From a virus: a stretch of 30,395 nt of DNA. How positions within the stretch are numbered: the stretch's first letter is position 1; the number at the start of each line of letters is the position of its first letter. Below, piece by piece: positions 669 through 734 of the stretch. Made by a program: the position numbers and the translations under genes. Location of the stretch: the UHGV virus genome UHGV-1557986. One strand, given 5' to 3'. Below the pieces are notes generated by a model. It saw nothing but the letters and a program-made list of their open reading frames with translations, was not told the origin of the DNA and searched no databases.

Positions 669-734
669 ATTGCTCTAATAAAAAACGTGATGAGTGTACA
701 TCACGTTTTAAAAATATGGAATTATTAGAGCAAT
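669..734. promoter_or_regulatory. Pair of inverted C1-repressor-type operators (669-685 forward ATTGCTCTAATAAAAAA; 718-734 reverse, reading ATTGCTCTAATAATTCC) flanking a 9-bp-arm palindrome AACGTGATG-N6-CATCACGTT (684-707)
   Basis: Match to the P1 C1 operator consensus ATTGCTCTAATAAATTT (14/17 and 14/17); perfect inverted repeat seen directly. Confidence 0.55.

What the first reader, a model, noticed from the sequence alone, without database searches (positions are those of the whole stretch)
669..734. Two inverted C1-type operators bracketing a perfect 9-bp-arm palindrome
Operator-like sites on opposite strands flank AACGTGATG-N6-CATCACGTT, in the 80-bp gap between the glycosyltransferase-like gene and two small ORFs that run toward the IS end. 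The palindrome could be a terminator for the upstream operon (T-run on the minus strand) or the site of a second regulator. The small ORFs it controls could be immunity or anti-repressor type functions.
Basis: partly seen in the sequence, partly recalled or inferred. Interest (0 to 1): 0.4.

Follow-up and report, generated by a model that had tools for sequence, protein, structure and literature searches.

The report
Known P1 repressor sites around terminator
This is the already-catalogued pair of phage P1 C1-repressor binding sites (Op86a/Op86b) that guards the promoter of the virion-assembly genes pmgR-pmgS, and the palindrome between them is most likely the transcription terminator of the upstream operon, so it is ordinary.

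Summary
Two inverted C1-type sites lie at 669-685(+) and 718-734(-). They flank a perfect palindrome whose arms are 11 bp (682-692/699-709), not 9. The window is a P1-like phage-plasmid segment, and 669-734 is base-for-base identical to phages P1 and P7. The P1 GenBank record already annotates the two sites as C1 operators OpmgRb/OpmgRa (former Op86b/Op86a), with a predicted promoter PpmgR between them. The "small ORFs" are not immunity or antirepressor genes. One is pmgR, an essential head-completion gene. The other is the 5' third of pmgS, cut by an IS3-family insertion.

What I add concerns the palindrome, which that record does not annotate. In 180 related loci (32 haplotypes) it behaves as an RNA hairpin on the gene-sense (minus) strand. 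Two base pairs show compensatory double changes. One-sided changes are mostly G.U-compatible in the sense strand only. The hairpin is followed by U6 and starts 26 nt after the pmgQ stop codon. It is therefore most likely an intrinsic terminator overlapping the pmgR promoter. Published P1vir RNA-seq shows a 4-8-fold step up in early expression across this junction, which fits a separate promoter there. No second regulator is indicated.

Novelty: already known. Interest is low.

The parts
669..685 (+). C1 operator OpmgRb (former Op86b), ATTGCTCTAATAAAAAA. It lies between the hairpin and the pmgR ribosome-binding site and overlaps the U-tract of the hairpin.
   Evidence: Identical to the annotated P1 site. 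14/17 match to the consensus with a perfect 13-nt core. The core is kept in E. albertii, Cronobacter JK004 and Salmonella relatives while the adjacent linker varies.
718..734 (-). C1 operator OpmgRa (former Op86a), ATTGCTCTAATAATTCC. It starts 1 nt after the pmgQ stop codon and overlaps the annotated -35.
Evidence: Consensus match.
682..709 (-). Hairpin with arms 709-699 and 692-682 and loop 698-693. Read on the minus strand it is AAAACGUGAUG-UACACU-CAUCACGUUUU followed by UUAUUA. Proposed intrinsic terminator of the pmgL-pmgQ unit.
   Evidence: Perfect 11-bp arms. -13.4 kcal/mol, z -5. Two compensatory pairs and sense-strand-only wobble changes. Positive rough terminator score in the sense direction only. 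Not annotated in the parts of the P1 record read here.
677..685 (-). U-tract of the proposed terminator, UUUUUUAUU on the minus strand.
   Evidence: Read directly from the sequence. Invariant across all 30 aligned haplotypes. Two loci carry a 7-U variant.
705..733 (-). Predicted sigma-70 promoter PpmgR as annotated in P1: -35 TTGCTC at 733-728 and -10 TAAAAC at 710-705.
   Evidence: GenBank AF234172 annotation transferred by identity. It is weak: the generic scan does not call it, and the -10 reads TGAAGC in JK004.
693..698 (-). Alternative -10 candidate TACACT, which is the hairpin loop (TATCAT in the Salmonella and JK004 relatives).
   Evidence: Best-scoring candidate in my simple weight-matrix scan in 5 of 6 relatives. 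TATCAT also sits between the inverted operator-like pair in the Citrobacter relative. This is inference only.
736..1437 (-). pmgQ (hdmD in P7), a glycosyltransferase-like gene and the last gene of the upstream unit.
436..654 (-). [quoted passage not shown] Ribosome-binding site AAGGTG at 664-659.
   Evidence: 100% identical to P1 PmgR. Phenotype from PMC9024508.
114..434 (-). 5' fragment of pmgS (106 codons of 420), ending in the IS.
   Evidence: Homology to P1 stops at about window 117. PHROG 'PmgS-like head morphogenesis', profile positions 1-93 of 405.
1..116 (.). End of an IS3-family (ISSen4-like) insertion sequence that interrupts pmgS.
   Evidence: 100% match to NZ_CP034659.1, where an ISSen4-family transposase is annotated.

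Best explanation
The 66-bp element is the regulatory junction between two P1 transcription units. It is already catalogued in P1 as Op86a/Op86b (OpmgRa/OpmgRb) plus the predicted promoter PpmgR.

Shown here:
- The sequence is identical to P1 and P7.
- It carries two perfect 13-nt C1 operator cores in inverted orientation.
- It lies between pmgQ and pmgR.

Inferred:
- In the lysogen, monomeric C1 repressor occupies both sites. Op86a sits over the -35 region. Op86b sits just downstream of the start point, between the hairpin and the pmgR ribosome-binding site. Together they shut off the early sigma-70 promoter of pmgR-pmgS.
- The palindrome between the sites acts at the RNA level on the gene-sense (window minus) strand. 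It forms an 11-bp hairpin followed by U6, 26 nt after the pmgQ stop codon, and terminates transcripts coming from the upstream pmgL-pmgQ unit.
- Transcripts that start at PpmgR begin inside the hairpin. This holds whether the -10 is the annotated TAAAAC or the loop hexamer TACACT. Such transcripts lack the 5' arm and so escape termination.

In this particular plasmid the controlled operon is damaged: pmgR is intact, but pmgS is split by an IS.
For: Identity to annotated operators:
- Searches show 669-734 identical to P1 and P7, with protein_bind features for 'phage repressor C1' at exactly these positions.
- The consensus match is far above chance.
- The operator cores are retained in diverged relatives while the flanking intergenic bases change.
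- Two distant relatives (Citrobacter, Pantoea) carry a different inverted repeat pair at the same junction. In Citrobacter the motif recurs in another intergenic region.

Hairpin as a sense-strand RNA element:
- 180 loci give 32 haplotypes.
- Read on the sense strand, 97.6% of cells are paired. Two pairs carry compensatory double changes (G-C to A-U, and A-U to G-C). There are 20 wobble cells against 8 unpaired.
- Read on the antisense strand, 92.7% are paired, with 4 wobble cells against 24 unpaired.
- Sense-strand folding energy stays between -12.3 and -13.5 kcal/mol in four diverged haplotypes. Antisense energy falls to -4.4 and -5.8 in two of them.
- The U-tract is invariant.
- A rough d'Aubenton-Carafa-type score (formula from memory) is +8 to +14 in the sense direction and -21 in the antisense direction.

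Separate promoter at the junction:
- P1vir RNA-seq Table S1 (PMC8201110) gives log fold changes at 10 min of 6.9-7.4 for pmgO to pmgQ, against 9.0 for pmgR and 10.0 for pmgS. The rise from 10 to 30 min is +4.6 for pmgQ and +1.8 for pmgR.
- CRISPRi roadblocks in pmgO to pmgQ are not lethal, although deletion of pmgR is.
Against: - No experiment on C1 binding, the transcription start or termination at this site was accessible. The primary P1 operator papers and the P1 genome paper are not held.
- The generic scanner calls neither a promoter nor a terminator here. Both -10 candidates are weak.
- If the full 11-bp stem forms, only UUAUU remains as a free tail, and the terminator score then turns negative.
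- At 30 min, pmgR and pmgS RNA levels (10.8 and 11.7) are similar to pmgQ (11.7). Strong termination is therefore not demonstrated.
- The covariation rests on only two diverged clades plus many near-identical sequences, so the cells are not independent events.
- The loci were collected with a pattern that required both operator cores exactly. Operator conservation therefore cannot be read from that set.
- The CRISPRi argument is weak, because the pmgR knockdown itself also scored non-essential.
Confidence: 0.7

Rival explanations
1. The palindrome is the DNA-binding site of a second, dimeric regulator (phage- or host-encoded) that acts on PpmgR together with C1.
For: It is a perfect 11-bp inverted repeat centred on the promoter region. 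Its loop and arms overlap both -10 candidates. Compensatory changes in two half-sites could in principle track a co-evolving dimer.
Against: The motif occurs nowhere else in the 30-kb window. It is unrelated to the Lpa -22 box. One-sided changes are 20:4 in favour of G.U pairing on the sense strand, an asymmetry that has no meaning for double-stranded DNA recognition. The distant relatives keep the operator pair but have no palindrome.
Confidence: 0.07
2. The hairpin is an RNA element but not a terminator. It could be a 3'-end stabiliser or processing site of a pmgQ-pmgR read-through transcript. Alternatively it could be the inner part of the long 66-nt hairpin formed with the operator arms, which modulates pmgR translation.
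For: Read-through RNA can fold into an extended structure of -26.9 kcal/mol, z -7.6. pmgQ and pmgS RNA levels are similar at 30 min. The stem is modest, with a 7-bp G+C-containing core at -8.5 kcal/mol.
Against: The invariant U6 tract directly after the stem is the hallmark of an intrinsic terminator. The pmgR ribosome-binding site (664-659) lies outside the structure. The outer stem follows automatically from the inverted operator arrangement.
Confidence: 0.13
3. The palindrome has no function of its own. It is a chance or hitch-hiking inverted repeat in an A/T-rich promoter spacer, and only the two C1 operators matter.
For: Most loci are nearly identical, so conservation alone is weak evidence. 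Eight singleton haplotypes carry unpaired changes. The distant relatives manage without it.
Against: A perfect 11-bp palindrome is not expected by chance (0 of 100 shuffles). The two diverged clades keep perfect or wobble pairing through double substitutions. All haplotypes seen in more than one locus keep pairing in the sense strand.
Confidence: 0.08

Closest known systems
Bacteriophage P1 operators OpmgRa/OpmgRb (former Op86a/Op86b) with predicted promoter PpmgR (GenBank AF234172/NC_005856); P7 Op(sht a/b)
   Same: Base-for-base identical over 669-734. Same flanking genes (pmgQ upstream, pmgR-pmgS downstream). Same orientation and spacing.
   Different: Nothing differs within the element. 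One base just outside it differs (window 668 is A, P1 and P7 have G). The downstream operon is interrupted by an IS in pmgS.
Other P1 C1 operators, e.g. bivalent Op72ab (ban) and monovalent Op68 (dmt), Op82, Op83, Op88
   Same: Same 17-bp asymmetric consensus. Each is placed at the start of an early or morphogenetic operon. Several are present in this window.
   Different: Op72ab consists of two overlapping sites that form an imperfect palindrome. Here the two sites are 36 bp apart, face away from each other and enclose a hairpin. The record calls them two monovalent operators.
Rho-independent (intrinsic) terminators with an A-tract/U-tract pair, overlapping the next promoter
   Same: Stem-loop containing G+C pairs, U-tract at the 3' side, A-tract at the 5' side, a short distance after a stop codon, and pairing kept by covariation.
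   Different: The stem core is short and weak (7 bp, -8.5 kcal/mol). The generic scanner does not call it. Termination has not been measured. The P1 record annotates no terminator features in the parts read here (78.9-85.0 kb and 51.5-79.5 kb).

Membership tests
P1 C1-controlled operator (Op86a/b = OpmgRa/b) | 17-bp asymmetric site matching ATTGCTCTAATAAATTT | tested here: met
   Both sites match 14/17 with a perfect 13-nt core. 6 sites in the window against 0.04 expected.
P1 C1-controlled operator (Op86a/b = OpmgRa/b) | Positional orthology to the catalogued P1 sites (same sequence, same neighbouring genes) | tested here: met
   669-734 is identical to P1 and P7. The annotated protein_bind features map exactly to 669-685 and 718-734.
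P1 C1-controlled operator (Op86a/b = OpmgRa/b) | Binding of C1 repressor in vitro or in vivo | not testable with these tools
   Only the GenBank annotation is available. The primary papers are not held.
P1 C1-controlled operator (Op86a/b = OpmgRa/b) | Overlap with a functional promoter that it represses | tested here: inconclusive
   The annotated PpmgR is a prediction. The generic scan finds no promoter. My weight-matrix scan gives weak candidates. RNA-seq shows a step up in early expression at the junction, which fits a promoter there.
Intrinsic (Rho-independent) terminator | Stable stem-loop containing G+C pairs in the transcript | tested here: met
   11-bp stem with 4 G-C pairs, -13.4 kcal/mol, z -5 on the minus strand.
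Intrinsic (Rho-independent) terminator | U-rich tract immediately 3' of the stem | tested here: inconclusive
   U6AUU follows the 7-bp core. Four of these U can pair with the 5' A-run, which leaves UUAUU free. The scanner does not call it. The rough score is +10.7 with the 7-bp stem and -25.7 with the 11-bp stem.
Intrinsic (Rho-independent) terminator | Located shortly downstream of a co-directional gene | tested here: met
   The stem starts 26 nt after the pmgQ stop codon, on the same strand.
Intrinsic (Rho-independent) terminator | Pairing maintained in evolution on the transcribed strand | tested here: met
   2 compensatory pairs. 20 wobble cells against 8 unpaired on the sense strand, compared with 4 against 24 on the antisense strand. 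Energies. Caveat: few independent lineages.
Intrinsic (Rho-independent) terminator | Transcripts actually end there | not testable with these tools
   No 3'-end mapping data were found. Gene-level RNA-seq at 30 min is uninformative.
Palindromic operator of a second dimeric regulator | Motif recurs at other regulated sites, and half-site sequence is conserved | tested here: not met
   Unique in the window. Half-sites vary with a strand-asymmetric wobble pattern.
P1 late (Lpa-dependent) promoter | Conserved 9-bp -22 box (AAGTGACTT / TAGTCATTT in annotated LP23 and LPpmgL) upstream of a -10 | tested here: not met
   The boxes read from the P1 record do not resemble the palindrome and do not occur at 655-735.
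   The ORFs are PmgR (PHROG of unknown function; essential for head completion) and an N-terminal fragment of PmgS (PHROG 'head morphogenesis').

The most novel reading that the evidence does not exclude
A single 28-bp palindrome does two jobs. As RNA it terminates the upstream pmgL-pmgQ unit. As DNA its loop hexamer (TACACT in P1, TATCAT in the Salmonella and Cronobacter relatives) is the real -10 of the C1-repressed pmgR promoter, rather than the annotated TAAAAC. Transcripts would then start in the 3' arm and escape termination. Op86b would sit at about +1 to +17, the same -10-to-operator distance (7-10 nt) seen in the hairpin-less Citrobacter and Pantoea relatives. A terminator-embedded promoter bracketed by two repressor sites has not, to my knowledge, been described for P1.
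Probability: 0.3. Interest if true: 0.3.

Novelty: already known. Interest (0 to 1): 0.12.

Why it matters
It matters little beyond annotation. The finding rediscovers a pair of C1 operators that has been in the P1 genome record for two decades, in front of conserved virion-assembly genes.

The one addition is comparative evidence that the unannotated palindrome between them is a sense-strand RNA hairpin, most likely a terminator. That would define the 3' boundary of the pmgL-pmgQ unit. It would also explain why pmgR-pmgS show early kinetics distinct from the genes just upstream. This is useful for anyone engineering P1 phagemids or interpreting P1 transcriptomes and CRISPRi polarity, but it does not change how P1 immunity is understood.

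In this plasmid the element also marks a P1-derived segment that has been eroded by IS elements.

Tried and rejected
- Literature access. The P1 genome paper (PMC523184) and Velleman 1987 (PMC298904) are not held. A full-text search for 'Op86' returned only unrelated accession-like strings.
- Genome-contig scan with a PmgR alignment. It returned only two loci identical to P1.
- Mis-specified pattern. My first pattern had one N too many and found nothing in viral or metagenome contigs. The corrected 'L6 not G' pattern is nearly palindromic, so it matched P1-type loci on the opposite strand. It did not enrich for variants, but it added 50 metagenome loci.
- Rfam. Only a meaningless miRNA hit far below threshold.
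- Generic promoter/terminator scan. Nothing found in 300-1100. The terminator is missed because the A-run/U-run pairing uses up the tail.
- Helical phasing of the two operators. The spans between equivalent operator positions are 65 bp (P1), 43 bp (Citrobacter) and 47 bp (Pantoea). These are not a constant number of helical turns, so I dropped the idea (sequences).
- Lpa late-promoter box and host-factor sites. The late-promoter box does not match. CRP-, FNR- and LexA-type half-site spacings do not fit by inspection. The half-sites also change between clades.
- CRISPRi polarity (PMC10695390) as a test of a separate promoter. It is uninformative because the pmgR knockdown itself failed to score as essential.
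- Further distant PmgR relatives. A search with the Pantoea homologue found none.

Full report
**What is in the sequence.** Window 661-740 reads ccttgtaaATTGCTCTAATAAAAAACGTGATGagtgtaCATCACGTTTTaaaaatatggaaTTATTAGAGCAATattatt. A search with the P1 C1 operator consensus ATTGCTCTAATAAATTT at up to 3 mismatches finds six sites in the 30-kb window, against 0.04 expected. Two of them are 669-685(+) and 718-734(-). Their 13-nt cores are perfectly complementary to each other, and 40 nt lie between them. Such an inverted pair is not seen in any of 100 shuffles. Between the two sites lies a perfect palindrome. It folds at -13.4 kcal/mol, with z about -5 on either strand.

**What the region is.**
- A 1.1-kb stretch around the finding is 97-98% identical to phage P1, P7, SJ46, RCS47 and other P1-like phages.
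- The first 800 bases of the window are 100% identical to a 454-kb IncHI1B/IncY plasmid of E. coli ATCC 98082.
- In the P1 record AF234172, the positions corresponding to 669-685 and 718-734 are annotated as protein_bind 'phage repressor C1'. A predicted sigma-70 promoter PpmgR lies between them, with -35 TTGCTC and -10 TAAAAC.
- P7 carries the same two sites as Op(sht b) and Op(sht a).
- An alignment shows that 669-734 is identical in the window, P1 and P7.
- The gene to the right is pmgQ (736-1437, minus strand). It matches a glycosyltransferase PHROG.
- The first small ORF is pmgR (436-654), 100% identical to P1.
- The second small ORF (114-434) is the first 106 codons of the 420-codon pmgS. 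Homology to P1 stops at about position 117, where an ISSen4-like IS3-family element begins.

**Function of the controlled genes.**
[quoted passage not shown] - pmgR and pmgS are among the 21 most conserved genes of P1-like phage-plasmids (PMC9603915).

**The palindrome.** The parts of the P1 record read here (78.9-85.0 kb and 51.5-79.5 kb) annotate nothing at the palindrome apart from the -10 hexamer, and carry no terminator features. I therefore tested the palindrome comparatively.
- *Diverged relatives.* Loci found through the PmgR protein (E. albertii, Cronobacter phage JK004, a Salmonella plasmid) keep both operator cores and a hairpin at the same place. Their stems differ:
  - Salmonella has AAAACATGGTG/CACCATGTTTT. 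Two base pairs are changed on both sides relative to P1, and the palindrome remains perfect.
  - JK004 and E. albertii carry A-to-G and similar changes that give G.U pairs only if the RNA is read on the gene-sense strand.
- *Larger set.* A pattern scan of viral and metagenome contigs brought the set to 180 loci and 32 haplotypes.

| Reading of the 30 equal-length haplotypes | Cells paired | Pairs with compensatory double changes | Wobble cells | Unpaired cells |
|---|---|---|---|---|
| Sense strand | 97.6% | 2 | 20 | 8 |
| Antisense strand | 92.7% | 2 | 4 | 24 |

- *Frequency.* Every haplotype seen in more than one locus keeps sense-strand pairing. All pair-breaking variants are singletons.
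- *Energy.* Sense-strand hairpin energy stays between -12.3 and -13.5 kcal/mol in the four diverged types. Antisense energy collapses to -4.4 and -5.8 in two of them.
- *Terminator features.* The U-run after the stem is invariant, and the stem starts 26 nt after the pmgQ stop codon. A rough terminator score is positive in the sense direction only. The formula is recalled from d'Aubenton Carafa 1990 and is unverified.
- *Against a regulator site.* The palindrome occurs nowhere else in the window. It does not resemble the Lpa -22 box. It matches no Rfam family.

Together this favours an intrinsic terminator for the upstream pmgL-pmgQ unit over a second regulator's site.

**Caveats on the terminator reading.**
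- The covariation comes from two diverged clades.
- The collection pattern fixed the operator cores, so that set says nothing about operator conservation.
- The generic scanner does not call a terminator here.
- With the full 11-bp stem, the free U-tail is short.

**The promoter.**
- The annotated PpmgR is a prediction and is weak. The generic scan finds nothing, and its -10 reads TGAAGC in JK004.
- In a simple weight-matrix scan, the best candidate in five of six relatives uses the hairpin loop as -10 (TACACT in P1, TATCAT in Salmonella and JK004).
- TATCAT also lies midway between a different inverted operator-like pair in a distant Citrobacter relative that has no hairpin. A Pantoea relative is arranged similarly.
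- The Citrobacter motif recurs in another intergenic region, as an operator would.
- With either -10, transcription would start inside the hairpin, so promoter-derived RNA lacks the 5' arm and is not terminated. Which -10 is used remains open.
- That a promoter exists here is supported by published P1vir RNA-seq (PMC8201110, Table S1):

| Genes | Log fold change at 10 min | Rise from 10 to 30 min |
|---|---|---|
| pmgO to pmgQ | 6.9-7.4 | +4.6 (pmgQ) |
| pmgR | 9.0 | +1.8 |
| pmgS | 10.0 | +1.7 |

- The 10-min values for pmgR and pmgS are comparable to other C1-controlled early operons in the same table.
- The 30-min values are similar on both sides of the junction, so they do not measure termination.
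- CRISPRi polarity data are compatible with a separate promoter but uninformative.

**Verdict.** The finding is a correct rediscovery of a catalogued P1 regulatory site, so its novelty is 'already known'. The guesses of a second regulator and of immunity genes are not supported. I score interest at 0.12. The most novel reading still open is a terminator whose loop doubles as the -10 of the next, C1-bracketed promoter. I put its probability at about 0.3, and its interest would be moderate at best.

Noticed in passing
window 1-116 and 114-434: An ISSen4-like IS3-family element interrupts pmgS after about codon 106. In the matching plasmid NZ_CP034659.1, a gene of 507 nt on the same strand lies beyond the IS. 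That is the size of P1 pap, but I did not confirm its identity. If it is pap, this is a simple insertion, not a deletion.
   Followed up: partly
window about 30290-30395: The right end of the window looks like an IS26 end: GGCACTGTTGCAAA followed by an ORF that starts MNPFKGRHFQRDIILWAV. The P1-like segment therefore appears to be bounded by IS elements on both sides. The IS26 identification is from memory and was not tested.
   Followed up: no
window 3435-3451, 4342-4358, 14403-14430, 18713-18729: Other catalogued C1 operators are present. Op82/O26, the bivalent Op72ab (ban) and Op68 (dmt) all have exact P1 cores. An Op83-like site has 4 mismatches to the consensus and differs from P1 at two positions.
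   Followed up: partly
L004 1931-1974 (Citrobacter freundii pRHBSTW-00697_3); L009 1426-1471 (Pantoea sp. plasmid): Distant P1-like plasmids (PmgR 34-37% identical) have a different inverted repeat pair at the same pmgQ/pmgR junction: ACCATACTAATT...AATTAGTATGGT in Citrobacter and AGATACTAAAATA... in Pantoea. Neither has a hairpin between the repeats. In Citrobacter a third copy lies in another intergenic region (3575-3586). This suggests a C1-like repressor with altered operator specificity.
   Followed up: partly
records MH160767.1 / NC_050153.1 (phage vB_EcoM-Ro157c2YLVW), homologue of window 436-654: The pmgR homologue is annotated there as 'L: RNA-directed RNA polymerase L'. This is evidently an annotation error for a 72-aa P1 morphogenesis protein.
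   Followed up: no
window 668 and 655-668: The base immediately outside Op86b is A here and G in P1 and P7. The 14-nt linker between Op86b and the pmgR start codon varies freely among relatives, while the operator core does not.
   Followed up: partly
P1 genes pmgL to pmgV (window about 114-5100 and beyond): In published P1vir RNA-seq, pmgR, pmgS, pmgT and pmgU are among the most strongly induced phage genes at 10 min (log fold change 9.0-10.0). They behave as early genes although they are named as morphogenetic ones (PMC8201110 Table S1).
   Followed up: partly
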